From a virus: DNA of 64,000 bases. The position numbers were made by a program, and so were the translations under genes. Where the stretch lies: IMG/VR virus record IMGVR_UViG_3300044445_000048, positions 1 through 64,000 of that record; one strand, written 5' to 3'. Each line of letters begins with the position of its first letter. The stretch's first letter is position 1. The notes beneath the pieces are model-generated. The model saw only the letters and a list, made by a program, of their open reading frames with translations, ran no database searches and was not told the origin of the DNA. Positions 13,428 through 34,047 of the stretch are shown here, piece by piece.

Positions 13428-14209
13428 CCCAGAGCTCAGTCCAGCGTCGCGCGCGTCTCGCCGCGGCGCTGGACTCATCGGTCGACGGTGAATTCGTCAC
13501 GCTCGACGACATGATGGCGGTGTGGGGCGTGTCGAAGGGCACGATGGTCAACACCATCAAGATGATCCCGTTCTTTCCGCCGCAGGATCACGTCGGCGAG
13601 CGCAACCGGGTCTATTACAAGCGGCGCGAGGCGCTGGCGGCGTTGCAGAAGTGGGAGCACCGCGGCGACCATGTGAACGCCGATCGTCAGCGGCGGCTCA
13701 ACAAGATCATGGGCATCACCGACGAGGAGGAAGCCGGCGCTCTCCCGATCGGTGACATGATGAAGGCTTCCGCCCTTCGTGCGGAAATGGAACAGCGCAT
13801 GGTCGCGCAGCGCGCCCTCGTCGCGAAGGCCGATGTGGCGAACACCGGGGCGCGGGTGTTCGAGATTATCAGCCGGTTGCTCAGCAATCTCGGCACCGTC
13901 GTCGACCCGAACGGGATCTACCCGGCGGCGGTGCGGGAGGCGGCCGACGCCGCCGGTCATCAACGTCTGTTGCGCATACACGCTGAAATGAAGGATATGC
14001 TCGCCGGCAATGTCCATGATGCTCAACCAGATGGAGATCGAAAGGCTCGAGGCGGATCTCGCAAGCCTGGGAACGCTCGACCATCTGGCGGCCGCGGCGG
14101 AGGCATGGGCAAGCCGGCTGGACATGCTCCTGCCGCCGGGCGCGATAACGACAAATCAGTGGGCGCGAAACGACCGGTACGTCAAAGGGCGAAACGAGCT
14201 CCCGGCTAA
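13424..14209 (+). CDS. terminase small subunit candidate (Nu1-like HTH N-terminus)
   Basis: It lies immediately upstream of a GpA-type terminase. The N-terminal HTH is VTLDDMMAVWGVSKGTMVNTIK. ATGA overlap at the start. The last ~65 codons overlap terL out of frame. Confidence 0.5.
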   Translation: MTQSSVQRRARLAAALDSSVDGEFVTLDDMMAVWGVSKGTMVNTIKMIPFFPPQDHVGERNRVYYKRREALAALQKWEHRGDHVNADRQRRLNKIMGITDEEEAGALPIGDMMKASALRAEMEQRMVAQRALVAKADVANTGARVFEIISRLLSNLGTVVDPNGIYPAAVREAADAAGHQRLLRIHAEMKDMLAGNVHDAQPDGDRKARGGSRKPGNARPSGGRGGGMGKPAGHAPAAGRDNDKSVGAKRPVRQRAKRAPG

Positions 14210-16172: not shown

Positions 16173-16416
16173 TGATCTGACTGTTGCCGAGATCCGCGAG
16201 AAGATCGTGGAGATCCGGACGGCCGTCGAAACCGCGGTGATGGGCGGCGAAGTCGAGGTGATCTCCGGCGAAGGCCGGATGATGAAGGCGCGCCTGCTCA
16301 GTATCAGCGAGGCCAAGGGTCTCATCGCGCTGCTACAGGAGGAGCTCACCGATCCCGAGCGCACCGGGATTGCACGGCGCGGTCGCGCCCTTGGCGTAAG
16401 GATCGATGCACGATGA
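16159..16416 (+). CDS. gpW-like head-tail joining protein
   Basis: This 85-aa protein sits between terL and the portal as in lambda. Its helical pattern and C-terminal RRGRALGVRI resemble gpW. Confidence 0.7.
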   Translation: MGLYSDLTVAEIREKIVEIRTAVETAVMGGEVEVISGEGRMMKARLLSISEAKGLIALLQEELTDPERTGIARRGRALGVRIDAR

Positions 16417-18077
16417 AACTTCCCGAGCTCGTGGGCTACGATGAGGCCAAGGGTAAGCCCAAGATGCGGATCGCCGCCGACTTCTCGTGGGAGGCGTTCC
16501 GCCAGCTTGGCGGCGACACGCAACTCGACTTCACCCCGAAGCTGTCCGGCAACCAGGAGCAACTGCGCACCCGCGACAAGGCGGTGGCGAAGGCGCGCGA
16601 CACCGAGAACAACACCGAGGCGATCCGCGGCGGCCTCGATCGCAAGGCGAACACCGTCGTCGGTCCCGCGCTGCGCCCCGTCCCGACGCCGGATCTCCGG
16701 TGGCTGGGCCGCCCGACCGACGTCGATTGGCTGCTCGAGTATCAGCAGTCGGCGACGTCGGCGTTCAACGAATGGGCGAACGATCGCTTCCAGCGGTGCG
16801 ACGCCGAGGGCCATTACAATTTCGGCGGCTTGATGTGGCAGGCGTTCCGATCGCTCACCGGGCCGGAAGCCGAAGTCGGCGGATACATCGGCTACGATCG
16901 CGACCGCGCCGATCGCATGGGGCATAAGTGGGGCACGTTCGTCCACCTGGTCGATAGCGCGCGGATCTCGAACCCGGATGGCAAGCCCGACTATTCGTGG
17001 CTCAAGTCCGGCCGCCAGGTCGACGAGCTCGGTGCGATGGAGGGGCTCTATATCGCCACCCGTCACCCCGGCGAAGCGCCGACGTCCGACGAGAAGGTGA
17101 CGCGCAACGCGACGTGGGATTTCGTCCCGCGCTACACGGACAGCGGCCGCCCGATGGCGTTCCACTGGTTCTTCAAGCGCCGGCCGGGGATGCAGCGCGC
17201 GCTCACCTCGCTCACCGCGGTGCTGCGCACCGTCCAGCTATTGTCGCGCTTCAACGACGCGACGTTGCAGACGGCCGTGTCGAACTCGCTCATGGCGACG
17301 TTCATCAAAACGACCATGTCGCCGGAGAAGGCCGCGGAGCACATGGCTCCCGGTGATGAGGATCAGCCGAGCGAGTATTTCGAGAAGGTCGACGCCTACA
17401 GCAAGATGAACTTGCGGTTCGGCGATAAGCGCATCCCGGTACTCGGGCCGAACGACGAGATCGTGTTCGAGTCCCTCGAGGGCGCGGCGATGGATTTCGA
17501 CCCGTTTCGCAACGCCTTCCTCCGCGAGCTCGCCTCCGCGCTCAATATCAGCTTCGAGCAACTCAGCCTCGACTTCTCCCGCTCGAGCTACTCGTCGACG
17601 CGCAGCAGCCTCATGGAAGCGTGGAAGCAGGTGATGTTCGAGCGTTTCATGTTCACGAACCACGTCGCCGGCTTGGTGTACGATGCCGTGATCGAGGAGG
17701 CGTTCGCGCTCGGCATCCTGGTCGAACCGACCGGCGCACCGTCGTTCTACGAAGCGCGGCAGGCGTACACGAATTGCCGGTGGATCGGGCCGGCGCAGGG
17801 CTGGGTAGATCCGGCGAAGGAAATCACGGCCGCGCAGACGCGCGTCGCGCTGGGGATCTCGAGCCTGTCGACCGAAGCGGCCGGGCAGGGCGAGGATTGG
17901 CACGACGTTCTGTTGCAGCGGTCGCTCGAGAACAGGGTCGCCGCCGAGCTCGGTGTTGTCATCGACACCGGCGGCGGCGGCGCGCCGGGCACCAACGCCG
18001 CCGAAGATGATGAGGAGGCCGCGAACGCAAAGAGCGACGCCGCCGGCAACAAGGAACCAGCCGATGCAAATGCCTGA
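16413..18077 (+). CDS. portal protein, lambda (gpB) family
   Basis: It is 554 aa long and sits in the lambda gpB position. The overall pattern resembles lambda-type portals. Confidence 0.85.
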   Translation: MKLPELVGYDEAKGKPKMRIAADFSWEAFRQLGGDTQLDFTPKLSGNQEQLRTRDKAVAKARDTENNTEAIRGGLDRKANTVVGPALRPVPTPDLRWLGRPTDVDWLLEYQQSATSAFNEWANDRFQRCDAEGHYNFGGLMWQAFRSLTGPEAEVGGYIGYDRDRADRMGHKWGTFVHLVDSARISNPDGKPDYSWLKSGRQVDELGAMEGLYIATRHPGEAPTSDEKVTRNATWDFVPRYTDSGRPMAFHWFFKRRPGMQRALTSLTAVLRTVQLLSRFNDATLQTAVSNSLMATFIKTTMSPEKAAEHMAPGDEDQPSEYFEKVDAYSKMNLRFGDKRIPVLGPNDEIVFESLEGAAMDFDPFRNAFLRELASALNISFEQLSLDFSRSSYSSTRSSLMEAWKQVMFERFMFTNHVAGLVYDAVIEEAFALGILVEPTGAPSFYEARQAYTNCRWIGPAQGWVDPAKEITAAQTRVALGISSLSTEAAGQGEDWHDVLLQRSLENRVAAELGVVIDTGGGGAPGTNAAEDDEEAANAKSDAAGNKEPADANA

Positions 18078-19005
18078 TCTCCGCTACGTCGACCGGGAGC
18101 TCGAGGCATCGAAGGTGATGCAGCGGATGCTCAACCACCCGCTCGCGATCCGTGAAGCCAACTTCCCCATGATCCTGTCGGCGGTGCGGGCGAAGTACGG
18201 CCTCAAGTCCATCACGATGGGCGACGCCATGTTCGGCGAGGATGACATGGCCGCGCTGGCGATGAGCGGCGGCAAGCAGGCGATGGCGCGCGACGCGCAA
18301 CGCCGCAACGGCCGAATCTTCGACGAGAGCGAGGGCATCGCCGTCATCCCTGTGTACGGCACGCTGACCAAAAGCTGGGGGCTCGATCCGTGGTCGGGCA
18401 TCACCGGCTACGACGGGATCGAGGCGAAGGTGGTCGCCGCGATGCTCGACGAGAATATCCGCGGGATCTGGTTCGATATCGAGTCCGGCGGCGGCGACGT
18501 GTCCGGCCTGTTCGATCTGTGCGATCTTATCTGGTCATGCAACGCCTTCAACGGCGGCAAGCCGATCTACGCGATGGCGAACGAATACGCCTACTCGGCG
18601 GCGTATGCGATCTTCTCATGCGCCGATAAGGGGTTCGTTCCCCGGTACGGCGGCGTCGGATCGGTCGGTGTCATCACCGCGCACGCCAGCTATGCCCGCG
18701 CCTACGAGCAGGCCGGCGTCGATATCACCGTGATCCGCGGCGGCGAGGAGAAGGCTCGCATGAACGCGATGGAGACGCTGCCCGAGAAAACCCGCCTGCA
18801 CGTCCAGCGCCAGGTCGATACGATCCGCACCGGTTTCATTCAGATGGTTTCGCGAAATCGCCGTTCAGCGGTCTCCGAAAAAACTGTTCGCGAAACTGAG
18901 GGGCTGGATTATATGGGCGAGGACGCGAGGGCCATCGGGTTTGTCACCGAAGTTTGTTCTGAGCATGAGGCTTGGGGTAAACTCGTGAGGCGGGTACAAA
19001 AGTAA
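18064..19005 (+). CDS. S49 (SppA/ClpP-fold) head maturation protease
   Basis: IAVIPVYGTL...IWFDIESGGGDVSGLFDL...AYSAAYAIFSCADK follows the S49 peptidase pattern. Start trimmed to ATG 18064 (AAGGAA upstream). Confidence 0.85.
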   Translation: MQMPDLRYVDRELEASKVMQRMLNHPLAIREANFPMILSAVRAKYGLKSITMGDAMFGEDDMAALAMSGGKQAMARDAQRRNGRIFDESEGIAVIPVYGTLTKSWGLDPWSGITGYDGIEAKVVAAMLDENIRGIWFDIESGGGDVSGLFDLCDLIWSCNAFNGGKPIYAMANEYAYSAAYAIFSCADKGFVPRYGGVGSVGVITAHASYARAYEQAGVDITVIRGGEEKARMNAMETLPEKTRLHVQRQVDTIRTGFIQMVSRNRRSAVSEKTVRETEGLDYMGEDARAIGFVTEVCSEHEAWGKLVRRVQK

Positions 19006-19772: not shown

Positions 19773-20447
19773 ATGTTGCCAACCAAGCATTTCAGCGACG
19801 CCGGCCTCGATTGGGGCTTCCTGGTTTCCGAACCGAGCAACAACCGCATCGCGCGCGAGCAGGGCATGCTGGGGGCGAGCGCAACGGCGCTGGTCGCCGG
19901 CACCGTGCTGGGTGTCGCCACGCTGGGCTCGGCGGGTTCCGCTCCCGGCAAGGTCACTGGCGGCGCGAATACCGGCAACGGCACGCTGACCCTCGATCCC
20001 ACCACGCCGGTGCTCGCCGATGCTGCCCCCGGCGACTATCAGGTGACGTTCACGGCACCGACGCACTACCGCGTCGAGAAGCCGAACGGCGACGTGATCG
20101 GTGAAGGCGACACCGGCGTGGCGTTCAGCGACGACGTGAAATTCACGATCGCCGCCGGCGGCACCGCCTTCGTGGCTGGTGACGGGTTCAAGATCACGGT
20201 CGCCACCGGCTCGGGCATCGCGGTGCCGCTGACGCTGGCGGCGCTCGACGGTGGTCAGGTCGCGACCAAGATCTTGGGCATGGGGCAGAAGGCATCGGCC
20301 ACGCCGCAGCGCGTGACGTTCTCCACCGGCCCCGGCGTCGAGGTGAACGGCAACCTGCTCACTTGGCCGGTGGGCATCACCGCTACGCAGAAGAAGGTCG
20401 CCGAGGCGCAACTCGCCGCCAAGGGTATCAAGGTCCGCTACGGCTGA
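19773..20447 (+). CDS. head decoration protein (gpD-like) with a ~95-aa internal insertion
   Basis: N-terminal ...LVAGTVLGVAT and C-terminal ...VNGNLLTWPVGITATQKKVAEAQLAAKGIKVRYG fit the decoration-protein pattern. It lies directly upstream of the gpE-like capsid gene. Confidence 0.6.
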   Translation: MLPTKHFSDAGLDWGFLVSEPSNNRIAREQGMLGASATALVAGTVLGVATLGSAGSAPGKVTGGANTGNGTLTLDPTTPVLADAAPGDYQVTFTAPTHYRVEKPNGDVIGEGDTGVAFSDDVKFTIAAGGTAFVAGDGFKITVATGSGIAVPLTLAALDGGQVATKILGMGQKASATPQRVTFSTGPGVEVNGNLLTWPVGITATQKKVAEAQLAAKGIKVRYG

Positions 20448-20519
20448 TCAACGGCCCGTCCCATGTGGGGCGGGCCGCAACAACACCGCGCCGCTCGGCG
20501 GGTAGTATGGGGAACGACG

Positions 20520-21578
20520 ATGGACGAACTGGCGCTGGATATCTTTCGCACGGACGATTTCCGCGCGACCACGATGACGGAGCTCGTCTCCGATCAGGAG
20601 TATGTACCGTTCGAGCTCGAGGCGATGAACATCTTTGAGCCGGTCTATCTCCGGACTCAGACGGTGACGATCTACTCGGAGGAGGGCGCGCTCTATCATC
20701 GCATCCCGACCACCGAGCGCGGTGCTCCCGAGCCGGTCGCGACCCGCCGGGGCCGCGTGATCCGGCAGATCGAAGGTCCGCGTCTCGCCAAGCGCGATCG
20801 CGTGAACGCCGGCGAAGTCGCTGGCCTGCTCAGCCCCCGCCTGCCGACCGCCGATCGCCTGATGAACGCGAACGAACTGGTCGCCGAGCGTCAGAATGGC
20901 CTGATCGACGATCTCAAGATCACTCAGGAATTTTGGTATCTGGGCGGCATCCAGGGCGTGATCCTCGACGCCGACGACACGAGCGTGGTGGCGAACTATT
21001 ACGAGGACTTCAACGTCCTGCCGCCGACGCCGATCATGTTCGACTTCGACGATTATCTCGAGCCGCAGGATCAGGGCAAGCTGCGCCAGATGATCGACGC
21101 CGAGATCAACACGCCGATGATGCGTGCGCTGGGCTCGCGTCGCCGCCGGCCGGGCATGTCGATCCACGCGCTTTGCGGCGATGCCTTCTGGTCGCAGATC
21201 TCGAGCTCGCCGGCGTATGAGCGCATCATGCTCACCGACGCGGGCCGGGCCATGCTCAACCAGACGCGCCTGTGGCAGTCGATCACGATCGGCGGCGTGA
21301 CGTGGTGGCACTATTTCGGCGACGACGATCAGGTTCTGTCGGTGGCGTCGGATGAAGCGATCTTCTTCCCGATGGGCGCGAAGGATGTATTCAAGCAATA
21401 CTTCTTCCCCGGCGAGGAGCTCGGCCGCGAGAATGAGCGTGCGCAGGAGCTCTACTCGGTGGTGTCGCCGGACAACCGGATCAACATGAACGAATACGTG
21501 GATATCTACGTCCGTTCGTACACGTTGCCGGTGTGCCTGTGCCCGCAGGCCCTCACCCGCGCGAAGCTGGCCGCGTAA
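20520..21578 (+). CDS. major capsid protein, lambda gpE family
   Basis: MDELALDIFRTDDFRATTMTELVSDQEYVPFELEAMNIFEPVYLRTQTVTI matches the gpE-type N-terminal pattern. It is 352 aa from ATG 20520. Confidence 0.85.
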   Translation: MDELALDIFRTDDFRATTMTELVSDQEYVPFELEAMNIFEPVYLRTQTVTIYSEEGALYHRIPTTERGAPEPVATRRGRVIRQIEGPRLAKRDRVNAGEVAGLLSPRLPTADRLMNANELVAERQNGLIDDLKITQEFWYLGGIQGVILDADDTSVVANYYEDFNVLPPTPIMFDFDDYLEPQDQGKLRQMIDAEINTPMMRALGSRRRRPGMSIHALCGDAFWSQISSSPAYERIMLTDAGRAMLNQTRLWQSITIGGVTWWHYFGDDDQVLSVASDEAIFFPMGAKDVFKQYFFPGEELGRENERAQELYSVVSPDNRINMNEYVDIYVRSYTLPVCLCPQALTRAKLAA

Positions 21579-23632: not shown

Positions 23633-24832
23633 TTGTCATGGAACCATCGTGATCGCATCTTCGCGATCGGCATCACCATCCAGCCCGTCGCCGGCCAGTT
23701 TAACCCGCCGGCGCAGGCGGATCTGATCGGCTGCTCGAGCCCCGAGAACGGCAACGATCTGATCAGCGCGGCTGACCCGACGCAAACCGGTACGATCTGG
23801 GATCAGGCCCGGATCTATCTCGGCGAGCGCGGCACGGTTGGCGGCACCATCCCGCTGCGCGGCCCCGGCGGCGCGACGCCCCCGGTCGGCAATGGCTGGG
23901 CGGTCGGCCGGATCTTGCAGGGGTGCGGCTTCGCTGAGCAGCGTCTCGGCACGGCGACGGCGGCGGTCGCGCTGGGTGCGGGTTCGACCACCGGGCAGCT
24001 TGTGCTCAACGCGAGCGAGCCGGCGATCGATGACGTCTATGTCGGCATCCCGATCATCCACACGGCGATCGGCTCCGGCGTCCGCAGCTTCACGCTGATC
24101 CGCGATTACATCGGCGCGACCAAGACGGCGATCTTGGCGGAAACGCTGAGCCAGGTGCCGACCGGGAACTATCGCTTCCCGGCTTACCTCGCCTACGTGC
24201 TCAGCACGCTCGGCATCGCGCCGCCGCTGCTCTCGATCTCGGTGTGGAAGGATAAGAAGCGGTATGACTATCGCGACTGCGTCATTTCGTCCTGGTCCGT
24301 CGACTCCCCGGTGGCGAACGAAGCCAACCAGAGCTTCCCCTCGTTGCAGTTTTCGGCGGTGGGCGTCCCGATCGATCCGTATGCGGCAACGACGCCGACG
24401 CTGCCGGACGCAGTCAAGAACGTGCCGGTGCCGGGCAACCGCGGCGGTAAATTCTTCCTCGACTCGGTGCTGCTCGGTCACGGTGGATCGAAGTTTTCGC
24501 TCACGCTCGAGACGGGCGCGGCGTCGAACTCGAACCAGGACGCCGGTCAGGACGGCTACGATATCCTCTCGGGCTCGCGCACGCTCGAAATGGATCTCAA
24601 CCAGATGGACGTCACCGACTTCGATCTGGTCGGCCGCACGAAGGCGCAGACGCGCATCCCGATGCTCGACACCTGGGGCCTGGGCGGCGGCAACAACGTC
24701 GGCATGCTCGTGCCGAACATGGTGCTCGACCCGATGAAGCCCGGCGCGCGGAACGGCTACGTCAGCCTGACCGGCAACGGTAATCTGGTCGACGTCGACA
24801 AGTCGTTTGCGATCGCGTTCCCGTACCTCTAA
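23633..24832 (+). CDS. major tail protein candidate (TTG start)
   Basis: It is the last large ORF before the chaperone and tape-measure genes. CAGGAG lies 8 nt upstream of the TTG, and a strong terminator follows. Confidence 0.5.
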   Translation: MSWNHRDRIFAIGITIQPVAGQFNPPAQADLIGCSSPENGNDLISAADPTQTGTIWDQARIYLGERGTVGGTIPLRGPGGATPPVGNGWAVGRILQGCGFAEQRLGTATAAVALGAGSTTGQLVLNASEPAIDDVYVGIPIIHTAIGSGVRSFTLIRDYIGATKTAILAETLSQVPTGNYRFPAYLAYVLSTLGIAPPLLSISVWKDKKRYDYRDCVISSWSVDSPVANEANQSFPSLQFSAVGVPIDPYAATTPTLPDAVKNVPVPGNRGGKFFLDSVLLGHGGSKFSLTLETGAASNSNQDAGQDGYDILSGSRTLEMDLNQMDVTDFDLVGRTKAQTRIPMLDTWGLGGGNNVGMLVPNMVLDPMKPGARNGYVSLTGNGNLVDVDKSFAIAFPYL

Positions 24833-24859
24833 GGGGAACTCGTCTCAGTCGATCGGTGG

Positions 24860-24894
24860 GGGGCGGTGGGGAAACTCACCGCCCCTTTCCTTTT
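24860..24894 (+). terminator. rho-independent terminator after the major tail gene
   Basis: The stem GGGGCGGTG (24860-68) pairs with CACCGCCCC (24877-85) for 9 bp. The loop is GGGAAACT and the tract TTTCCTTTT follows. Confidence 0.75.
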
Positions 24895-24929
24895 GTCCAG
24901 ACGTGTGGCAACGATCGCGGCGTCGGTGA

Positions 24930-25005
24930 CGCGGGGTGGCGCAGTCCGGTAGCGCAACGGGCTCATAACCTGTAGGTCGCGGGTTCAAATCCCGCCTCCG
25001 CAACC
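24930..25005 (+). tRNA. tRNA-Met (anticodon CAT), initiator-like acceptor stem
   Basis: A manual cloverleaf folds as CGCGGGG/TG/GCGC-AGTCCGGTA-GCGC/A/ACGGG-CTCATAA-CCTGT/AGGTC/GCGGG-TTCAAAT-CCCGC/CTCCGCA/A. It has a C1xA72 mismatch and closely resembles E. coli tRNA-fMet. Only CC of the CCA end is encoded. Confidence 0.85.
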
Positions 25006-25548
25006 GACACAAGATCCCGAGCGAAAGCTCGCCCTGCCAGCGCCTCGAGCAAAGGCAGGAGTCGGTTCCCGACTGCACGGCGGGGAGGAACTTGCGAGTG
25101 AGTAGGCCCAAGGCTGGCGGAGCCTAGAATACCGGGAGGAGCGGCGCGGACTCGGCGCTCCCGTTGTGGCTGTGACCGGGGATGCGGTTGCGGAGGCAGC
25201 GATAAGGCATCGCCCCGTTAGGCTACGGCCGCAAGCGGGGAGGCGCTCCTCCCTACCAGTTTCAAGGTTCCCCGCGAGGGGGTCCGGTGGTCGCGGGTTC
25301 GAGCCCCGCTGACGGGTGGCGCGCCTGTTGTAGCTCAGTCGGTAGAGCACCGGATTACTTTGACGGCGGCAGGCGTGGCGACCGCGCTCCGCAAGGGTTC
25401 GGGGTTTCAAGTCACCCCCGATTGCCGCCGTCGATCAGTCCCGTTCCTCCGGGGCCGAAAGGTAAGAGGCGTCCGGCACGACACGCCGGTAGGCTGGGGT
25501 GTCCGCTGCACTGTTAAGGGCGGATGCATGGCACCCCGCCCGTCCCGC
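25006..25548 (+). ncRNA. candidate large structured non-coding RNA between the two tRNAs
   Basis: The region has no credible ORF; all six frames give Arg/Pro/Gly junk. Stems are dense, including GNRA-capped hairpins at 25018-31 (GAAA), 25270-81 (GCGA), 25388-97 (GCAA) and 25454-63 (GAAA). Nested helices lie at 25496-25537. Confidence 0.4.
25283..25354 (+). ncRNA. circularly permuted tRNA-shaped module (T-arm, capped acceptor stem, D-arm)
   Basis: The T-arm is GCGGG-TTCGAGC-CCCGC (25293-309). TGACGGG (25310-16) pairs with CCTGTTG (25324-30) across a 7-nt cap. The D-arm is GCTC-AGTCGGTA-GAGC (25333-48). TCCGG (25283-87) pairs with CCGGA (25350-54). Confidence 0.55.
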
Positions 25549-25623
25549 GGGGAGATCGTCCAACGGTTAGGACGCTGGTCTCCAAAACCAGCAATCTAGG
25601 TTCGAGTCCTAGTCGCCCCGCCA
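25549..25623 (+). tRNA. tRNA-Trp (anticodon CCA)
   Basis: A manual cloverleaf folds as GGGGAGA/TC/GTCC-AACGGTTA-GGAC/G/CTGGT-CTCCAAA-ACCAG/CAAT/CTAGG-TTCGAGT-CCTAG/TCGCCCC/G/CCA. There is one A5xG68 mismatch and the CCA end is encoded. Confidence 0.85.
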
Positions 25624-25761
25624 ACTTGCCAACTTGCGCAATTCGTCAAACTGACCGATATGCTTGTCACCGGATTGGGCGATCGGCCCCAGGCGAGCGT
25701 AGAGAAATCCGCCCGTCGTTGTCTCGATCGTTCCCGGCTATCCCCTACAGCTATGGAGAGA

Positions 25762-26007
25762 ATGATGACGCATGTGCGCGCGAAGTTTCGTGTCACCTCG
25801 ATCGAGGATTTCGGCATGTCCAAGCAGGTGAAGATGGTGGTCGCGTATGACCCCACCGCCAACGGCGAGAACGCGAACTTCACCAAGGCCACGCCATCCG
25901 GCGAGCTCAAGATGACGATCGACAACCCGGCGGCGGCCATCCAATTCGAGGTGGGCAAGCACTATTACGCCGACTTCACCGAGGCGACCGAAGCCAGCAA
26001 CGGCTGA
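25762..26007 (+). CDS. hypothetical small tail-module protein (81 aa; ATG 25753 and 25765 are alternatives)
   Basis: GGAGAG lies just upstream. MMTHVRAKFRVTSIEDFG...ENANFTKATPSGELKMTIDNPAAAIQFEVGKHYYADF looks like a recurrent small phage protein type. Confidence 0.6.
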   Translation: MMTHVRAKFRVTSIEDFGMSKQVKMVVAYDPTANGENANFTKATPSGELKMTIDNPAAAIQFEVGKHYYADFTEATEASNG

Positions 26008-28113: not shown

Positions 28114-31100
28114 TTGGCCCGCGCGTCTACGTTCACGAACTATATCCGGACGGATCTCGACCCCCGTAGCGGCACCGCATACCGGCAACTCGAGACGATC
28201 GCGAACCGGACATACGACTCGATCGCCCGGCATGCGCTGGGTGCATCGTCGGCGTCGGCGCGGGTAGATCCATCGCGGGCATCCCGCGGCGGCGCGGCGT
28301 TCGCGCTACAGACGGCGGCGGCGTCGAAGGCTGCTCAGACGCTCGCCGCCACCGAGGCGCGGATCAGCGGCGTCGCACTGGCCGGATCGGCGGCGCTCGC
28401 GCGCAACGCCACGTCGACGCGCCACGTCGCGACCGAGACCACGCTCCTCAACCGGAACCTCAACACCCTCGCCTCGACGTTGAACGTCGTGCAGGGACCG
28501 CTCGGGCCGCTGGCTGGCCGCGTCCGCGCGATCGGCACCGCCGTGACCGAGCTCGCCGGCATCCGGCTGGGCCTGGCCGCCGGCGCGGCATCGATCTTCG
28601 CGTTCGCCTCCGCGTCCAACCAATTCGTCAACGTCGAGAACAAGCTCCGGCCGCTGTACGAGACGCAGACGCAGGTGAATTCGGCGCTCCGCGACGTGGA
28701 GCGGGCCGCGATCGGCGCGCACGCCGCGCTGGCACCCACCGCGGATCTCTACTCCAAGCTGACCGCCGCCGGCCGCGACTTCCGGATTGAGCAGAGCAAG
28801 ATCAACATCGCCACGTCGGTTGCGGCGAAGGCGGCGACGATCTCGGGCTCGAGCACGGAAGGCCGCGCCGCCGGCCTGTTTCAGTTTGCGCAGGGCATCG
28901 CCTCGAACACGCTCGGCGGCGACGAGCTCAAGTCGATCCGCGAGAATATCCCCGAGCTCGCCCGCGCGCTGGCGAAGGGGCTGGGCGTCCAGGTCGGCGA
29001 TCTCAAGAAGCTGGGGTCCGAGGGCAAGCTGAGTGCGCAGGCGATCGTCGACGCGCTCGCCAAGGCCGAGGAGGAGATCAACCTCAAATTCTCGCGCATC
29101 CCCAAGACGCTGAGCGTGGCGTCGACCGAATTCGGGAACGCCTTCACGCTGATGATCGGCCGCGCTGATCAGGCGGTCGGCGTCACGTCGAAGCTCGCGA
29201 ACGTGGTGTCGGTGCTGGCCGAGAACATGCGGACGGTGGCGGCACTCTCCGCCGGCGTCGGCGCAGCTTTCATCGCACCGCGCATCACGGCGGCGGCAAA
29301 GCAGACGGTCGCGGAGACCCGCCAGCAATTCGCCGGCGGCGCGACGGTCTACGGCCCGGCCCGTCCGACTGAGGCGAACGTCGCGCTGGGCAATGCCCGC
29401 GCGGCTCGGCTGGCGGCCGACGAGAACGTGGCGGCCACTCAGCGCGAGCTCGCCGCCCGGCAGGCGAACGTCGCGGCGCTTCGTGAGGAGACCGGCGCAT
29501 ACACCGCGCAGATCGGCAAGGCGCGTGAGCAGGCCGCGGCGGCGCTCGAGGCGTCGGCTGCGCAGCGCGCCGCCGCAACGGCCGTCACGATGGAGATCCG
29601 CGAGCAGATCGCGGCGACCGGGCAGAGCGCGGAGGCGATCGCCGCCGCCGCCACGGCCGACGTCGAATCCAACGGCGCGCGGATCTCCGCCGCGGAAGCT
29701 CGCATCGCCCTGTTGCGGGCCGAGCGTGTCGAGATCGTCGAGACCGCGAACGCTCAGGCGGCGGCGGCGTCGACGGCGCGCCAGGCGGCGGTGCTTCGCG
29801 CTGCTCAGGCGACCGGCGGCGGCGGGCAGGCGTATGCTGCCGGCATCAATGCCGGCAACGCAGAGAAGCAAGCCGCGGCCGCCACCACCGCCCTCGCCCG
29901 TACTCGCCAGCAGCTTGTCGCGATCGATGCCGAGCTCGCTGCCACGGAGTCGACCGTCGTCAGCGCCATGAACGCGCAGACGATCGCCGCCGAGCGCGCG
30001 GCCGCCGCCGAGCAGATCCTCGCCGCTAACACGGCCGAGACGAACGCCGTGCGGCAGTCGACCGTCGCGGCGACCTATGCTCAGCGTCAGCGCGCGGCGG
30101 CGGCGGCGCTCACCGCCGAAGTGAAGGCGATGCAGCAGGCCGAGATCGCGGCGACGGGCGCGACGGTGGTTCGCACCACGGCGATCGAGGCCGAGACGGT
30201 GGCGATGCGCGCCGCCGCGCTGGGCACCCGCGCGCTCAAGGGCGCGATGGATCTGCTCAAGACGTCGCTGCCGATCCTCGCGATCACCGGGCTGGTCACG
30301 GTGCTCACGTATCTCGCCACGGCGGAGAGCCAGGCGGAGGCGAACGCTCGCCTGCTCGAGGACGCGCAGAACAAGCTGTCGGGCGCGATCGACTTCAACA
30401 CCGGCAAGATCAAAGAGCAGAACAAGGCGAAGCTGGCTGGGCTCAACCTCGACCTGCAAACCGGGCTCAAGGCGGCCGGCTCGAACTATCGCACGGCGCG
30501 CAGCGAGCTCGCGAACCTTGGTGGCAGGATCGGCGGCCGTGATCAGGCCGGATCGTACAGCGGCTACATCAAGCTCACCGACGCGGAGAAGAAGGCCGAC
30601 GCCCTGTTCGCGGCGTATCGCAAGCCGGGCTCCACCATGTCGGCGGAGTCGTTGCAGACGAGCCTCGACGAACTGGCGAAGTCTGAGCCGCGGCTCAAGG
30701 CGGTGGCCGATGCGGCGGCGCGCGTCAGCAGCAACGTCGTGGACAGCGCGCAGGCGTACCAGAAGCTCACCGCGCAGCAGCGCCTCCTCACCGGCGATAA
30801 CACGCTCGAGAACCGCCAGCGCGCGCAGGGCGATTTCAGCCCCGTCGCCAAGCCCGGCACCACCGGCAACCGCAGCAAGGCGCAGATCGAGGCCGCCGCC
30901 GCCGCGGAAGCCGCGCAGACTGAGCTCGAGCGTGCCCGCGCCAACCTCAAGAGCGTTCGTGCGAACGGCGCTCAGCAGGGTGAGAGCGAGATCGATTACC
31001 AGCACCGGCTGGCGGCGGCGATCCAGGGCGTCAAGTCGGCGACGGAGGCTCAGGCCAGTGCTCGCAAGGCGGATACTGCCGGCCGGGTGCAGGCTCGAGC

Positions 31101-34047
31101 AGCGGCGCGCGACGCGATTCAGGATGCGCGCGACGAAGCCGAGCAGCGTCAGAACCTCGCCCTGCTCACCTTGGCGCGGAGTGGGAAAGACCCGAACAGC
31201 GACGAGTATATCCAGCAGCGCGAGCAGATCCTCGCCACATACGATAAGGAGGTAAACGCCCTCGACGCGAGCCGGGCAGCGTCGAACAGCGCGGCGCGCG
31301 CGCAGATCCAGGATGCGTTGAAGGTCCGCGCGGCGGCGGCGTCAGCGGGCGAGGCGATCGCCGATATCGCCAGCCGGTACGATACCGCGCCGCGCGCTCT
31401 CGATCGCGCCCGCGCCGACGTGCGAGATCTGCTCGCCCTGGTCGGGCAGCAGGTGGACGGCATCGCGCCCAAGACGGCGGAAAACCCCACTGGCCGCCGC
31501 CGCTTCACGACGGAGGATTACGAGCAGCGCGCCGCCGGCGTGCAGACGGGGCTGCGCAAGCCGTTCCAAGACATGCTCGACGATTACGCCCGAGAGGAGG
31601 AGATCCAGAAGGCGCTGCTCGACGGGCGCACCGCGGAGGCGCAGGCCCTCCGTCAGAAATTCGAGCTCGTCGACCGCGTGGGCGTGCTCGAGGCCGGGCA
31701 ATACGATCGCCTGTTGCAGGCGGCCGACCGGCAGGAGCGGGTCAACGCTATCCTACAGGATCGCGAGCGCATCACCGCGACGCTGTCCGGTGTGGTCGAC
31801 GACATGCGGAGCTCGGTCGAGGAGCTCCTAGCGGATCTCCCGAACAACGCGCCCAAGGCGGCGGCCGGTTTCGCGAAGCGCCTGTTCGCCAGCTATCAGG
31901 GCGCGTCGGCGCGCATCGTCACCGACCAGCTATTCGGCGGCGTCGACCAGCGGGTGAAGGATCTGATCAGCGGCCGCGACGCGGTGCAGCGGGCAACCGA
32001 CTTCGCGGCCACGCAATTCGGCACCACCGGCATGGCTGCGCAGAGCCTCGCCGGCGCGTTCAACACCGCGAAGGATTTCATGCTGCGCCTGGTCGGGCAG
32101 ACGCCCGGCACGAACACCGCGCCGCTGTCCGCGCCGGCGTCGACCGAAGCTCCGGTCAATCCGTACCTGCCCCGCGCAACCCTCCCGAGCGGCGTGCTGC
32201 CGGAGGGCACGACGTTCGGCGCGTTGCTCAATCCGGGGAACTCCGTCGACGCGGTGTTGAGGCTGGCGAGCGGCAGGATCGATTCCGCGTCGACCATCCT
32301 GTCCGAACAGATCGCGTCGGCTGCACCGGTCACGGCGTTCGATGCGACCACGGCATCGGCTGGATCGCTGCGCGCCGGCATCGACGGCCTCACCTCGAGC
32401 GTCAACGCGGCCGCCAGCGCGGCGGCGGGCATGGCGAACGGTCTCGCCGCCGGCCCGATCGGCGGCCAGAGCCAGGCCACGACGCAGGCCCTCGTCGACG
32501 TCGCCACCAAGGTGAGCTCGGCTGTCGCGGAGAGCGGCGAGGACATCATCGTCACGGCCAAAAAGCAGGTCGACCGCGGCGTCATCCAAGATCCGTTCGC
32601 CGGCAAGGCGGTGGGCGTGCTCAAGGATCTCGGCATCAAGCTGCCGGATCTGAACCGGCAGAAGCCGCCGTCCATCCGAGAGGTGTATAACGAGACCGGC
32701 AAGGCGATCGGCGAGAAGCTCGACAATGCGCTCGGCACCAAATTCCTGGGCAGTCTCGGCGCGAAGTTTGGCGACGCGCTCAAGGGTGCCGGCACCGGTC
32801 AGCTTGCATCTGGCATCGCGTCGAAGCTGGGGATCAAGCAATCCCAGACGGGCGCGGCGATCGGCGGCGCGATCGGCGGCGCGACGGGCATCCCCGGTGC
32901 CGATATCGTCGGCGGCCTGATCGGCGGCACGGTCGGCGGCCTGTTCAAGAAAACCAAGTCGGCATCGGCCGGTGTGACGATCGACGGGTTCGGCGCTGCC
33001 GCCGGCGCGGCGACGGGCACGAAGTCACGGCAGGCGGGTGCGACCTCGCTCGCCGGCGGCGTCGCGAGCAGCATCCAGCAGATCGCCGATCAGCTTGGCC
33101 TGTCGCTCAGCGGCTCCTCGAACGTGAAGATCGGCACGTACAAGGATCAGATCCGCGTCTCGACCAACGGCACGCCGATCGGCGGCAAGGGCAGCAAGGG
33201 CGCGATCACCTTCGCCGATGAGCAGCAGGCGATCGAGTATGCCGTTCGCGACATGATCAGCGATGGCGTGCTGCCGGGGATGAGTGCGGCGTCGAAGCGC
33301 ATCCTGCTCGCCGGAAAGGATCTGTCGAAGCAACTCGAGAAGGCGACGCTGATCGAGAGCATCCCGAAGCGGCTCCTCCGTCTCACCGATCCGGTGCGCG
33401 CGGCCGTGACGGAGCTCAACGATGAATTCATGAAGATCAAGGCGGCGCTCGACGAGGGCGGGGCGTCGGCTGAGCAGTATGCGCAGGCGCAGAAGCTCTA
33501 CGATCTTGAGCGGGTGCAGGCGATCCAGAGTGCGCAGACGGCGACGAGCACGGCGATTGATGATTTCCTCAAGCAACTGAACCAGACGTCGGACAGCCCA
33601 CTCAACAAGGCGACGGTGTACGACAACGCGAACGCGACCTTCCAGAAGCTCGTGTCCGACGTGCAGGCTGGCAAGGTGGTCGACGCGGATGCGCTGGTCG
33701 AGGCGGGCAAGAACTTCAACGATGCCAGCCGCGCGCTCAACGGCTCGAGCTCGGGGTATTTCAGCGACTTCGACTTCCTCCGGCAGATCCTCGAGAAGGG
33801 CAAGACGAACGCCGCCGCCGCGGTGACGGGCCTGCCGACCAGCGATCTCCCCGGCTCGCCGTTCGGCGTCATGTCGGATGCGATCTCGGCGAGCTCGAAC
33901 GCAACGGTGCAGGCGACGAACCAGCAGACGGCCGTGCTCAACCAATCGTTGCAGGCGATCCTGCAAAAGCTGGGCGGCGCGGGCGTAATCTCGTCGATGG
34001 ATAACCTTGCGGCGTTCCGTCAGACGGGGTTCGCATACGCCAATTAA
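28114..34047 (+). CDS. tape measure protein (1977 aa, TTG start)
   Basis: It is a very long Ala/Gln-rich helical protein. A Gly-zipper hydrophobic segment (GAAIGGAIGGATGIPGADIVGGLIGGTVGGLF) lies near the C-terminus. The position is canonical for a tape measure. Confidence 0.9.
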   Translation: MARASTFTNYIRTDLDPRSGTAYRQLETIANRTYDSIARHALGASSASARVDPSRASRGGAAFALQTAAASKAAQTLAATEARISGVALAGSAALARNATSTRHVATETTLLNRNLNTLASTLNVVQGPLGPLAGRVRAIGTAVTELAGIRLGLAAGAASIFAFASASNQFVNVENKLRPLYETQTQVNSALRDVERAAIGAHAALAPTADLYSKLTAAGRDFRIEQSKINIATSVAAKAATISGSSTEGRAAGLFQFAQGIASNTLGGDELKSIRENIPELARALAKGLGVQVGDLKKLGSEGKLSAQAIVDALAKAEEEINLKFSRIPKTLSVASTEFGNAFTLMIGRADQAVGVTSKLANVVSVLAENMRTVAALSAGVGAAFIAPRITAAAKQTVAETRQQFAGGATVYGPARPTEANVALGNARAARLAADENVAATQRELAARQANVAALREETGAYTAQIGKAREQAAAALEASAAQRAAATAVTMEIREQIAATGQSAEAIAAAATADVESNGARISAAEARIALLRAERVEIVETANAQAAAASTARQAAVLRAAQATGGGGQAYAAGINAGNAEKQAAAATTALARTRQQLVAIDAELAATESTVVSAMNAQTIAAERAAAAEQILAANTAETNAVRQSTVAATYAQRQRAAAAALTAEVKAMQQAEIAATGATVVRTTAIEAETVAMRAAALGTRALKGAMDLLKTSLPILAITGLVTVLTYLATAESQAEANARLLEDAQNKLSGAIDFNTGKIKEQNKAKLAGLNLDLQTGLKAAGSNYRTARSELANLGGRIGGRDQAGSYSGYIKLTDAEKKADALFAAYRKPGSTMSAESLQTSLDELAKSEPRLKAVADAAARVSSNVVDSAQAYQKLTAQQRLLTGDNTLENRQRAQGDFSPVAKPGTTGNRSKAQIEAAAAAEAAQTELERARANLKSVRANGAQQGESEIDYQHRLAAAIQGVKSATEAQASARKADTAGRVQARAAARDAIQDARDEAEQRQNLALLTLARSGKDPNSDEYIQQREQILATYDKEVNALDASRAASNSAARAQIQDALKVRAAAASAGEAIADIASRYDTAPRALDRARADVRDLLALVGQQVDGIAPKTAENPTGRRRFTTEDYEQRAAGVQTGLRKPFQDMLDDYAREEEIQKALLDGRTAEAQALRQKFELVDRVGVLEAGQYDRLLQAADRQERVNAILQDRERITATLSGVVDDMRSSVEELLADLPNNAPKAAAGFAKRLFASYQGASARIVTDQLFGGVDQRVKDLISGRDAVQRATDFAATQFGTTGMAAQSLAGAFNTAKDFMLRLVGQTPGTNTAPLSAPASTEAPVNPYLPRATLPSGVLPEGTTFGALLNPGNSVDAVLRLASGRIDSASTILSEQIASAAPVTAFDATTASAGSLRAGIDGLTSSVNAAASAAAGMANGLAAGPIGGQSQATTQALVDVATKVSSAVAESGEDIIVTAKKQVDRGVIQDPFAGKAVGVLKDLGIKLPDLNRQKPPSIREVYNETGKAIGEKLDNALGTKFLGSLGAKFGDALKGAGTGQLASGIASKLGIKQSQTGAAIGGAIGGATGIPGADIVGGLIGGTVGGLFKKTKSASAGVTIDGFGAAAGAATGTKSRQAGATSLAGGVASSIQQIADQLGLSLSGSSNVKIGTYKDQIRVSTNGTPIGGKGSKGAITFADEQQAIEYAVRDMISDGVLPGMSAASKRILLAGKDLSKQLEKATLIESIPKRLLRLTDPVRAAVTELNDEFMKIKAALDEGGASAEQYAQAQKLYDLERVQAIQSAQTATSTAIDDFLKQLNQTSDSPLNKATVYDNANATFQKLVSDVQAGKVVDADALVEAGKNFNDASRALNGSSSGYFSDFDFLRQILEKGKTNAAAAVTGLPTSDLPGSPFGVMSDAISASSNATVQATNQQTAVLNQSLQAILQKLGGAGVISSMDNLAAFRQTGFAYAN

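What the first reader, a model, noticed from the sequence alone, without database searches (positions are those of the whole stretch)
25006..25548. ~540-nt ornate non-coding RNA candidate between two tRNAs inside the tail operon
No frame here encodes a believable protein, yet the segment is packed with stems.

Helices seen by eye:
- CGAGC-GAAA-GCTCG (25018-31)
- CCTGCC...GGCAGG (25033-59)
- AGTCGG-TTC-CCGACT (25060-74)
- GCGAT-AAGGC-ATCGC (25199-213)
- CCCC-GCGA-GGGG (25270-81)
- TCC-GCAA-GGG (25388-97)
- GCC-GAAA-GGT (25454-63)
- CCGGC-ACGACAC-GCCGG (25473-89)
- nested GGGGTG[TCCGC...GCGGA]CACCCC (25496-25537)

Four GNRA tetraloops and two tRNA-shaped modules in ~540 nt point to a folded RNA rather than spacer. 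The context is a tailed phage, directly adjacent to tRNAs, downstream of a strong terminator. That matches the context reported for the large ornate RNAs GOLLD and ROOL. I cannot recognise either consensus here, and the GC content and presumed host lineage differ from theirs.
Basis: partly seen in the sequence, partly recalled or inferred. Interest (0 to 1): 0.7.

Follow-up and report, generated by a model that had tools for sequence, protein, structure and literature searches.

The report
Phage tRNA-mimic RNA without Ro60
The 540-base gap between two phage tRNA genes is non-coding, and its one element with evolutionary support is a 72-base, circularly rearranged tRNA look-alike of the bacterial "Y RNA" (YrlA) type, here in a phage that lacks the Ro60 protein such RNAs normally accompany; there is no evidence for one large ornate RNA.

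Summary
As a whole the segment is only modestly more foldable than chance: z about -2 against shuffles, and 1 of 20 same-size windows from this genome does as well.

The solid signal is a 72-nt module at 25283-25354. It is a circularly permuted tRNA-like domain: variable region, T arm, a closed 7-bp acceptor-like hairpin and a D arm, all closed by a 5-bp anticodon-like stem. All 21 pairs are standard and the tRNA core nucleotides are present.

A covariance model built from 17 such modules in other phages, with the window left out, scores it 71.4 bits (E 1.5e-18). That alignment covaries strongly. A syntenic relative (L005) has the same module, with 6 of 7 acceptor pairs changed on both sides.

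This is the tRNA-mimic domain of YrlA Y RNAs, which in phages normally sit beside a Ro60 gene. Here there is no Ro60 gene, and no Ro60-binding motif or conserved 5'-flank motif next to the module. The other ~470 nt have no detectable homologue anywhere searched. GOLLD, ROOL and tmRNA models do not match.

Verdict: a new variant of a known kind, of moderate interest.

The parts
24858..24897 (+). Intrinsic-terminator-like hairpin (13 bp, 9 G-C pairs) plus T run, ending the 399-aa tail-region gene (23633-24832).
   Evidence: One search gives a terminator-type similarity to BjrC68.
24930..25005 (+). tRNA-Met(CAT), initiator-like (C1xA72 mismatch).
   Evidence: 62.9 bits. It is 90% identical to the tRNA-Met at the same site in L005.
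25006..25079 (+). Segment A1: three consecutive hairpins at 25018-25031 (GAAA loop), 25033-25059 and 25060-25074. No homologue found.
   Evidence: (z -2.9). Only a 14-nt match to L023.
25080..25282 (+). Segment A2: predicted long irregular rod. Its core is a 10-bp helix 25134-25143/25244-25253, and it ends in the hairpin CCCC-GCGA-GGGG at 25270-25281. No homologue found.
   Evidence: (z -1.8). This is a thermodynamic prediction only.
25283..25354 (+). Circularly permuted tRNA-like (YrlA-type) domain. In order:
- anticodon-like stem, 3' strand TCCGG, 25283-87
- variable region TGGTC, 25288-92
- T arm GCGGG-TTCGAGC-CCCGC, 25293-25309
- acceptor-like hairpin TGACGGG-TGGCGCG-CCTGTTG, 25310-25330
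- U8 A9, 25331-32
- D arm GCTC-AGTCGGTA-GAGC, 25333-48
- A26, 25349
- anticodon-like stem, 5' strand CCGGA, 25350-54
   Evidence: Rfam YrlA 31.9 bits, E 7e-5. Independent model R1 71.4 bits, E 1.5e-18, full length. 21 of 21 standard pairs. Class covariation. Compensatory changes against L005.
25360..25434 (+). Segment C: very stable branched hairpin. It has a 12-bp closing stem 25360-71/25423-34 and inner hairpins at 25372-88, 25388-97 (GCAA loop) and 25399-25421. No homologue found.
   Evidence: (z -3.8).
25436..25548 (+). Segment D: hairpins at 25473-25489 and 25496-25537, plus the only exact GNCGAAN0-1G match (GCCGAAAG, 25454-61). Not more stable than shuffles.
   Evidence: (z -0.3).
25549..25623 (+). 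tRNA-Trp(CCA).
   Evidence: 61.5 bits.
25762..26007 (+). 81-aa gene of unknown function with a conserved ~90-nt leader. It is a separate mobile 'moron' unit and closes the inserted island.
   Evidence: (phrog_6978).

Best explanation
The stretch from 24833 to about 26007 is an inserted accessory island at a variable site of this lambda-like siphovirus, between the tail-region gene and the chaperone and tape-measure genes. It carries an initiator-like tRNA-Met, about 540 nt of non-coding RNA, tRNA-Trp and a small mobile gene.

Shown: within the non-coding part, the one element with evolutionary support is a 72-nt circularly permuted tRNA-like domain (25283-25354) of the kind found in bacterial and phage YrlA Y RNAs. 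It has a T arm, a D arm, a variable region with the G15:C48 partner, and an acceptor-like stem closed by a loop. The anticodon loop is replaced by the rest of the transcript.

Inferred mechanism:
- The island is transcribed on the + strand with the two tRNAs, either by read-through of the late operon or from an unrecognised promoter.
- The host tRNA-processing enzymes that free the two tRNAs (RNase P at the 5' end of tRNA-Trp, 3' trimming after tRNA-Met) release the ~540-nt piece.
- The module folds into a tRNA-like L shape and is recognised by host proteins that read the tRNA elbow and acceptor: modification enzymes, RNase P and possibly the CCA-adding enzyme. M. smegmatis YrlA, which also has a 7-bp acceptor stem, is cut by RNase P and receives CCA.
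- The phage has no Ro60 gene, and the Ro60-binding motif and the conserved 5'-flank motifs of Ro60-linked phage YrlAs are missing next to the module. So I think it most likely acts as a Ro60-independent tRNA mimic. It would be a decoy or tether for a host tRNA-binding factor, which might be a tRNA-targeting defence nuclease or the RNA-decay machinery.
- Use of a host-encoded Rsr is the main alternative.

The flanking hairpins (A1, A2, C, D) are lineage-specific. They are probably stabilising or processing structures, or separate small RNAs. There is no comparative evidence about them either way.
For: Identity of the module:
- Rfam YrlA hit at 25285-25355, covering exactly the tRNA-like part of the model (positions 23-88 of 114).
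- Bona fide phage YrlAs beside Ro60 genes score in the same range, 28-45 bits.
- Model R1, built from 17 other phage modules without the window, gives 71.4 bits, E 1.5e-18, full length, + strand only. L005 gives 70.2 bits.
- Alignment A3 has 93% of cells paired and a covariation score of 0.78, against 0.19 in shuffles (0 of 500 reach it) and 0.19 or less for slid partners.
- The window module has 5/5, 5/5, 7/7 and 4/4 standard pairs.
- It carries U8, A14, G15 with C48, G18 G19, G46, G53:C61, T54 T55 C56 and A58 (read).
- Syntenic L005 has tRNA-Met followed by the module, with 6 of 7 acceptor-like pairs changed on both sides.

Non-coding status.

No Ro60:
- tblastn with three phage Ro60-like proteins finds nothing better than E = 2.3 across the 64-kb window.
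- No TROVE or vWA_Ro60 domain in the 30 window ORFs scanned against Pfam, which include every ORF of 300 aa or more that passed my GC3 coding filter.

No Ro60-site motifs at the module.

Variable insertion site.

RNase P and CCA precedent, and the definition of YrlA: PMC4201824.
Against: - Expression is not shown. No sigma-70-like promoter was found in 24700-25900, and a strong terminator lies upstream.
- The Ro60-independent mechanism is inference from absence. The host is unknown and may encode Rsr.
- Short Ro60 motifs have near-matches in the region: GGCGGAG at 25112, GUCGAU at 25428, and an exact GCCGAAAG at 25454. About 0.4 exact matches are expected by chance (my estimate), so a non-canonical Ro60 site cannot be excluded.
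- The acceptor-like stem of A3 was a selection criterion for the sequences, and the D-arm and T-loop sequences were fixed by the search pattern. Only the anticodon-like and T stems are unbiased support.
- Only one syntenic relative carries the module.
- Nothing is known about the ~470 flanking nt. They may be functionally joined to the module.
Confidence: 0.6

Rival explanations
1. It is a genuine Y RNA that works through a host-encoded Ro60 (Rsr). The ~540-nt RNA, or a processed part of it, would bind host Rsr through a diverged site and use the tRNA-like domain as the effector module, for example to recruit PNPase as in the RYPER complex.
For: - The tRNA-like domain is indistinguishable in score from those of Ro60-linked phage YrlAs.
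- Phage Y RNAs can bind host PNPase (PMC12135203).
- Near-matches and one exact match to GNCGAAN0-1G occur in the region.
- Phage Y RNA genes often come as 400-700-nt tandem arrays: Kikimora, EfV12 and Snenia.
Against: - No Ro60 gene in the essentially complete 64-kb genome.
- The exact motif lies about 100 nt downstream of the module, not 25-35 nt upstream as in Ro60-linked units.
- The conserved 5'-flank motifs (GG[CU]G[UA]AG, ACUUC, CUGCUAAU) are absent.
- No terminal stem encloses the module in constrained folds, apart from a weak 6-bp helix.
Confidence: 0.2
2. The whole ~540 nt is one large ornate RNA with a complex tertiary fold, comparable to GOLLD or ROOL, and the tRNA-like module is one of its domains.
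For: - + strand-specific excess stability, z -2.0 against -0.5 for the - strand.
- Four GNRA-capped hairpins, P about 0.03.
- Very stable sub-domains A1 and C.
- The position next to phage tRNAs resembles that reported for GOLLD and ROOL (my own knowledge).
Against: - No Rfam hit to any large RNA family at E<=10.
- No homologue of the flanks in relatives or in GenBank phages.
- In L005 the module lies about 40 nt after tRNA-Met, against 277 nt here, so A1 and A2 are dispensable.
- Whole-segment stability is within the range of this genome's coding windows.
- Segment D is not structured beyond chance.
Confidence: 0.1
3. It is a non-functional remnant: the junction of two tandem copies of one tRNA gene whose outer halves have decayed, or other tRNA-gene debris in a recombination hot-spot.
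For: - The 3' half then 5' half order is what a tandem-duplicate junction would give.
- The site is a hot-spot with tRNAs coming and going.
- Rfam's tRNA model gives a weak 17.7-bit hit at 25328-25421 that reuses the D arm.
Against: - There is no trace of the missing halves in the flanks.
- All 21 pairs and the tertiary-core nucleotides are intact.
- L005 keeps the same permuted unit with compensatory changes in 6 of 7 acceptor pairs.
- The same architecture recurs in unrelated phages with strong covariation.
Confidence: 0.07
4. It is a permuted (two-piece) tmRNA-like or split-tRNA gene. RNase P would cut the acceptor loop and CCA addition would create a chargeable two-piece molecule.
For: - The gene order (T arm, 3' acceptor strand, intervening loop, 5' acceptor strand) is that of alpha-proteobacterial two-piece tmRNA genes (my own knowledge).
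- The acceptor stem is 7 bp, like the RNase P-cleaved M. smegmatis YrlA (PMC4201824).
Against: - ARAGORN finds no tmRNA.
- No Rfam tmRNA-family hit at E<=10.
- Position 3:70 is U-G, not the alanine identity pair G3:U70. L005 has A-U.
- A full D arm is present, unlike tmRNA.
- No CCA is encoded and no tag-like reading frame was seen.
- The loop can extend the stem to 9 bp with a 3-nt loop.
Confidence: 0.03

Closest known systems
YrlA (Y RNA-like, Rfam RF02553; Chen et al. 2014, PMC4201824), including the phage YrlAs next to Ro60-like genes in Mycobacterium phage Snenia, Brevundimonas phage Kikimora and Enterococcus phage EfV12-phi1
   Same: - The same permuted tRNA-like domain: variable region, T arm, closed acceptor-like stem, U8 A9 and D arm, closed by an anticodon-like stem.
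- The same conserved tRNA-core nucleotides.
- The same score range on the Rfam model.
- A full-length 71-bit match to a model built from such modules.
   Different: - No Ro60/TROVE gene in the genome.
- No GNCGAAN0-1G motif or ACUUC/CUGCUAAU flank upstream of the domain.
- No evident 5'/3' terminal stem.
- It is embedded in ~540 nt of unique structured sequence between two tRNA genes in the tail-gene region.
M. smegmatis YrlA (7-bp acceptor stem, cut by RNase P and CCA-added in vivo; PMC4201824)
   Same: A 7-bp acceptor-like stem stacked on a canonical T arm, which is the main RNase P determinant.
   Different: Cleavage was not tested here. The loop TGGCGCG can pair further to give a 9-bp stem with a 3-nt loop. 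There is no Ro60 partner.
GOLLD and ROOL large ornate RNAs
   Same: A phage setting next to tRNA genes, several hundred nt long, with many hairpins and GNRA loops (context from my own knowledge).
   Different: No match to either Rfam model at E<=10. No conservation of the ~540 nt as a unit.
Two-piece (circularly permuted) tmRNA of alpha-proteobacteria
   Same: The permuted order of the tRNA-like halves, with an intervening loop in the acceptor.
   Different: A full D arm. No G3:U70. No detected tag frame or pseudoknots. ARAGORN and Rfam are negative.
Phage tRNA-gene clusters
   Same: It sits among phage tRNA genes and is probably co-transcribed and processed with them. Further permuted modules in IMG/VR contigs also lie in tRNA or tmRNA clusters.
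   Different: It has no anticodon loop and its acceptor end is closed, so it cannot decode.

Membership tests
YrlA / bacterial Y RNA (RF02553) | tRNA-like domain in permuted order (V region, T arm, acceptor-like stem-loop, D arm, closed by an anticodon-like stem) | tested here: met
   21 of 21 standard pairs. R1 71.4 bits, E 1.5e-18, full length, with the window excluded from the model.
YrlA / bacterial Y RNA (RF02553) | Conserved tRNA tertiary-core nucleotides (U8, A14, R15:Y48, G18 G19, T54 Psi55 C56, A58, G53:C61) | tested here: met
   Read directly from 25283-25354: T25331, A25337, G25338 with C25292, GG at 25341-42, TTC at 25298-300, A25302, G25297:C25305.
YrlA / bacterial Y RNA (RF02553) | GNCGAAN0-1G (putative Ro60-binding) motif near the 5' end, upstream of the tRNA-like domain | tested here: not met
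   The regex finds one match only (GCCGAAAG at 25454), about 100 nt downstream of the domain. The 5' flank lacks the motifs shared by Ro60-linked phage units.
YrlA / bacterial Y RNA (RF02553) | Stem formed by the 5' and 3' ends that encloses the Ro60 site and the tRNA-like domain | tested here: inconclusive
   The module-constrained fold gives only a 6-bp helix 25080-85/25543-48 around everything. A hand-built helix 25078-92/25444-58 costs about 30 kcal/mol. No comparative data.
YrlA / bacterial Y RNA (RF02553) | Encoded within about 4 kb of, and on the same strand as, a Ro60 (TROVE) gene | tested here: not met
   tblastn with three phage Ro60-like proteins finds no hit better than E = 2.3 in 64 kb. 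No TROVE or vWA_Ro60 among the 30 window ORFs scanned against Pfam.
YrlA / bacterial Y RNA (RF02553) | Rfam gathering score (69 bits) | tested here: not met
   31.9 bits. However, Ro60-adjacent phage YrlAs also score only 28-45 bits, so this cut-off does not discriminate for phage sequences.
YrlA / bacterial Y RNA (RF02553) | Physical binding to Rsr/Ro60; tRNA-type modifications in vivo | not testable with these tools
   Needs immunoprecipitation, EMSA and modification mapping.
GOLLD (RF01998) / ROOL (RF03087) | Match to the family covariance model | tested here: not met
   No hit at the gathering threshold or at E<=10 with permissive filters on 24850-25750.
GOLLD (RF01998) / ROOL (RF03087) | Conservation of the large RNA as a unit in related genomes | tested here: not met
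   No similarity outside the tRNAs and the module in 43 syntenic loci or in GenBank phages.
tmRNA (including permuted two-piece forms) | Detection by ARAGORN or the Rfam tmRNA models; G3:U70 alanine identity pair | tested here: not met
   Position 3:70 is U-G in the window and A-U in L005.
Canonical tRNA | Standard 5'-to-3' order with an anticodon loop and a free acceptor end | tested here: not met
   ARAGORN and the Rfam tRNA model call only the two flanking tRNAs. The module has no anticodon loop and its acceptor is closed by a loop.

The most novel reading that the evidence does not exclude
Phages may carry a class of Ro60-independent 'orphan' YrlA-type tRNA mimics. These would be permuted tRNA-like domains with no anticodon loop, embedded in tRNA islands.

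They could work as uncleavable decoys or inhibitors of host tRNA-targeting defence nucleases or tRNA-surveillance enzymes. Alternatively they could be two-piece tRNA-like RNAs after RNase P cleavage.

The window would be a complete-genome example. Seven IMG/VR loci (L066, L078, L081, L117, L129, L138, L152) with no Ro60 in view, and L005, would be further candidates.
Probability: 0.3. Interest if true: 0.7.

Novelty: new variant of a known kind. Interest (0 to 1): 0.45.

Why it matters
Bacterial and phage Y RNAs have been defined and searched for only beside Ro60 genes. Chen et al. 2014 restricted their search to TROVE-encoding genomes.

A high-fidelity YrlA-type tRNA mimic in an essentially complete phage genome with no Ro60 gene, and with no recognisable Ro60 site, suggests two possibilities. 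The tRNA-like domain may have a function of its own, or phages may plug into host Ro60.

Either way, it gives a concrete 72-nt object to test for binding partners. It also gives a simple search recipe for counting such orphans: T-loop, closed 7-bp hairpin, D arm, scored with model R1.

A practical point follows too. Such modules can be mis-called as tRNAs or overlooked in phage annotation, as with the Kikimora 'tRNA-Ser'.

Tried and rejected
- Group I intron in a tRNA, or an intron-split tRNA. No Rfam intron hit, and the halves are in 3'-then-5' order.
- Two-piece tmRNA. ARAGORN and Rfam are negative, and there is no G3:U70.
- attP core (3' half of a host tRNA). No integrase domain in any of the 30 ORFs scanned against Pfam, which include all coding-like ORFs of 300 aa or more; the site lies in the tail-gene region; and a matching 5' half follows immediately.
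- Coding potential of the 141-aa - strand ORF and the + strand ORFs. No GC3 bias and no PHROG hit.
- A second permuted module in the window. R1 gives only a weak false-positive type of hit at the tRNA-Met T arm (22 bits), as it does at tRNAs in other loci.
- A hand-built long-range helix 25078-92/25444-58 as a Y-RNA-like terminal stem. The constrained MFE is about 30 kcal/mol worse.
- Homologues of the flanks:
  - blastn-short against 43 syntenic loci.
  - blastn against GenBank phages for 25006-25282 and 25355-25548.
  - An exact 20-mer from the module (25296-25315) in IMG/VR. All were negative.
- Closer relatives through the downstream 81-aa gene. It turned out to be a mobile gene in unrelated contexts, with no tRNA or module nearby.
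- Short Ro60-like motifs (UGGCG.AG, GUCGA/UUGAC, CGAA). They are present but too short to exceed chance, so I did not use them as evidence.
Full report
**Setting**

The window is a 66% G+C, lambda-like siphovirus genome and is essentially complete. The source contig is 64,480 bp, and relatives are about 59-68 kb. Pfam identifies:
- gpA-type large terminase, 14010-16172
- lambda-family portal, 16413-18077
- S49 protease, 17953-19005
- head decoration protein D, 19773-20447
- major capsid protein E, 20463-21578
- DnaB, RecT, a DNA-ligase-like protein and an SNF2 helicase

PHROGs identifies a 1977-aa tape-measure protein at 28114-34047.

The finding lies between a 399-aa tail-region gene (23633-24832, no family hit) and the genes that precede the tape measure. 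Directly upstream are a 13-bp terminator-like hairpin with a T run (24858-24897) and tRNA-Met(CAT) at 24930-25005. Directly downstream is tRNA-Trp(CCA) at 25549-25623.

**Checking the observation**

No ORF in the segment looks coding. GC3 is 0.62-0.71, against 0.77-0.91 in neighbouring genes, and five ORFs, including the 141-aa - strand one, hit no PHROG family.

Four hairpins carry GNRA loops, against 1.2 expected in dinucleotide shuffles (P about 0.03).

The + strand folds better than its shuffles: -274.6 kcal/mol, z -2.0, 3 of 100 shuffles as good. The - strand does not (z -0.5). This is a weak signal in a genome of this composition. Among 20 other 543-nt windows, one is as low and four more lie between -1.7 and -1.83.

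By sub-segment:

| Segment | Coordinates | z |
|---|---|---|
| A1 | 25006-25079 | -2.9 |
| A2 | 25080-25283 | -1.8 |
| tRNA-like module | 25284-25360 | -0.9 (usual for tRNA-like folds) |
| C | 25361-25435 | -3.8 |
| D | 25436-25548 | -0.3 |

Of 299 background 75-nt windows, 0.3% reach -2.9 and none reaches -3.8. My segment boundaries were chosen after the fact.

**What is there**

Read by eye, 25283-25354 is the 3' half of a tRNA followed by the 5' half (exact coordinates):

TCCGG | TGGTC | GCGGG-TTCGAGC-CCCGC | TGACGGG-TGGCGCG-CCTGTTG | TA | GCTC-AGTCGGTA-GAGC | A | CCGGA

With permissive thresholds, Rfam reports YrlA (Y RNA-like, RF02553) at 25285-25355. The score is 31.9 bits, E 7e-5, and the match covers exactly the tRNA-like part of the model (positions 23-88 of 114). 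Nothing else in Rfam's 4227 families matches the segment at E<=10 apart from chance-level hits, so GOLLD, ROOL, tmRNA and intron models all fail.

The module's features:
- All 21 pairs are standard: 5 anticodon-like, 5 T-stem, 7 acceptor-like and 4 D-stem.
- It carries the tRNA core nucleotides U8, A14, G15 with C48, G18 G19, G46, G53:C61, T54 T55 C56 and A58.
- It has no anticodon loop, which is replaced by the rest of the transcript.
- Its acceptor end is closed by a 7-nt loop.

**Is the module real, and to what class does it belong?**

1. blastn of the module against GenBank phages finds near-full-length permuted matches in Mycobacterium phages (Snenia and relatives), Brevundimonas phages (Kikimora, Gurke) and Enterococcus phages (EfV12-phi1 and relatives). 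All are unannotated.
2. In the three I opened, the match lies next to an 'RNA-binding protein'. Pfam identifies this as Ro60-like: TROVE plus vWA_Ro60 in Kikimora, and DUF2828 plus DUF7788 plus VWA in the other two. These are the phage YrlA loci of Chen et al. 2014 (PMC4201824).
3. On the Rfam model they score only 28-45 bits, the same range as the window (31.9) and L005 (40.7). The 69-bit gathering score therefore does not separate phage members.
4. A pattern scan of IMG/VR for a T-loop followed by a D arm gave 157 matches. Of these, 28 had at least 6 of 7 acceptor-like pairs, where about 2 are expected by chance. ARAGORN removed the tandem tRNAs.
5. That left seven modules beside Ro60-like genes (L085, L102, L103, L135, L156, L160, L164). 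Seven more have no Ro60 visible in the 1.5-14 kb fetched (L066, L078, L081, L117, L129, L138, L152).
6. An alignment of 17 modules that excludes the window and L005 has 93% of cells paired. Its covariation score is 0.78, against 0.19 in shuffles (0 of 500 reach it) and 0.19 or less when partners are slid. The acceptor-like stem was a selection criterion, and the D arm and T loop were fixed by the pattern. The anticodon-like stem (79% paired, all five pairs with changes on both sides) and three T-stem pairs are unbiased.
7. The covariance model from that alignment scores the window module 71.4 bits (E 1.5e-18, full length, + strand only) and L005 70.2 bits. Training members score 74-79 bits. 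There is no second module in the window.

**Relatives of the phage**

The 399-aa protein has 227 relatives, the best at 62% identity. I fetched 43 syntenic loci.

In most, the next gene follows within about 50-115 nt. A few carry other inserts:
- L035: a small ORF plus tRNA-Trp and tRNA-Gln
- L038: tRNA-Met, 216 nt, tRNA-Cys
- L023: a small ORF plus tRNA-Met
- L004: a 370-nt gap

So this is a variable 'moron' site.

Only L005 (NCBI GCA_040384165.1, a 68.6-kb contig) shares the tRNA-Met (90% identity) followed by the permuted module. Its acceptor-like stem is CCGGTCC/GGATCGG, against TGACGGG/CCTGTTG in the window. Six of seven pairs are changed on both sides with pairing kept, and its anticodon-like stem also differs. 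This is direct compensatory evidence in a syntenic pair.

In L005 the module starts about 40 nt after the tRNA-Met, against 277 nt in the window. A1 and A2 are therefore not required companions.

Outside the tRNAs and the module, nothing in 25006-25548 resembles the relatives or any GenBank phage.

**Is it a YrlA?**

It has the YrlA tRNA-like domain but fails the other defining features.
- There is no Ro60 gene. tblastn with three phage Ro60-like proteins gives nothing better than E = 2.3 in 64 kb. None of the 30 window ORFs scanned against Pfam has a TROVE or vWA_Ro60 domain.
- The GNCGAAN0-1G motif occurs once, at 25454, downstream of the module. About 0.4 matches are expected by chance (my estimate).
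- Ro60-linked phage units share 5'-flank motifs just before the domain: GG[CU]G[UA]AG, ACUUC and CUGCUAAU. The window has instead the hairpin CCCC-GCGA-GGGG there. L005 keeps at most a faint GCUCAUC.
- With the module constrained, the fold costs 7.6 kcal/mol relative to the free MFE. It shows no convincing terminal stem, and a helix I built by hand was rejected.

I therefore do not file it as a YrlA family member in the strict sense. I file it as an RNA carrying a YrlA-type tRNA-mimic domain in a new context.

**How it probably works (inference)**

The island is on the same strand as the operon and the tRNAs. No sigma-70-type promoter was found. It is probably transcribed by read-through of the late operon or from an unrecognised promoter, and released when RNase P and 3' trimming free the two tRNAs.

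The module should fold into the tRNA L shape and be recognised by enzymes that read the elbow and acceptor. M. smegmatis YrlA, which is distinguished by a 7-bp acceptor stem, is cut by RNase P and CCA-added in vivo. S. Typhimurium YrlA is modified by TruB and DusA (PMC4201824).

The phage has neither Ro60 nor a recognisable Ro60 site. The reading I favour is a Ro60-independent tRNA mimic: a decoy or tether for a host tRNA-binding factor. The main alternative is use of host Rsr and PNPase. Phage phiLo Y RNAs bind host PNPase (PMC12135203).

The flanking hairpins may stabilise the RNA, guide its processing, or be separate small RNAs. I have no comparative evidence about them.

**Verdict**

The evidence supports a 72-nt tRNA mimic of a known kind in an unusual Ro60-less context. 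It does not support a 540-nt ornate RNA. I rate it a new variant of a known kind, with moderate interest.

Noticed in passing
window 24930-25005: The phage tRNA-Met(CAT) has a C1xA72 mismatch, so it is initiator-like. A 90%-identical tRNA-Met sits at the same site in L005. Other tRNA-Met genes follow the tail gene in L038 and L023.
   Followed up: partly
window 24833-26007; L001-L043 just after the match: The gap after the 399-aa tail-region gene is a variable insertion ('moron') site in this phage family. Most relatives have 50-115 nt there. Others carry tRNAs, small ORFs or several hundred nt of unrelated structured sequence.
   Followed up: partly
window 25680-26007 (gene 25762-26007): The 81-aa gene (phrog_6978, unknown function) and its ~90-nt leader (GTAGAG...CGATCGTTCCCGGC.ATCCCCTACA) recur at 50-73% identity in unrelated contigs, next to ligase, portal/Mu-F and ThyX genes. 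It looks like a mobile unit with a conserved 5' leader.
   Followed up: partly
L045 3434-3508 (ON529857.1 158412-158486, Brevundimonas phage Kikimora): The annotated 'tRNA-Ser', which ARAGORN also calls, overlaps a YrlA-like unit (R1 65.6 bits at 3473-3542; Rfam YrlA at 3459-3557). It is probably a Y RNA mis-called as a tRNA. By eye, four tandem Y-RNA-like units appear to lie upstream of the Ro60 gene; the models confirm two of them.
   Followed up: partly
L066 592-663, L129 8908-8977, L078 4052-4126, L081 1773-1845, L117 4292-4364, L138 693-771, L152 12624-12693: IMG/VR phage contigs carry permuted tRNA-like modules inside tRNA or tmRNA clusters, with no Ro60-like gene in the fetched 1.5-14 kb. 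In L078 the acceptor loop starts with T-CCA, so a CCA end is encoded.
   Followed up: partly
L023 340-420 and L035 4300-4385: Two relatives share a long hairpin just after the tail-gene terminator (GCAGAG.CGGCGG ... GATGGAA.CGCCGCC). The window lacks it. Not analysed.
   Followed up: no
window 54007-58161, 48659-51019 (-), 1180-2223 (-), 9858-10502: Other gene content: a 1384-aa ORF with Calx-beta domains and lower GC3 (0.72); a 786-aa protein with DNA polymerase III beta N-terminal and central domains; DUF5131; and an MT-A70 methyltransferase.
   Followed up: no
window 25260-25267 and 25405-25412: GTTTCAAG occurs twice, once before the module and once in the loop of the third hairpin of segment C. 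Its significance is unknown.
   Followed up: no
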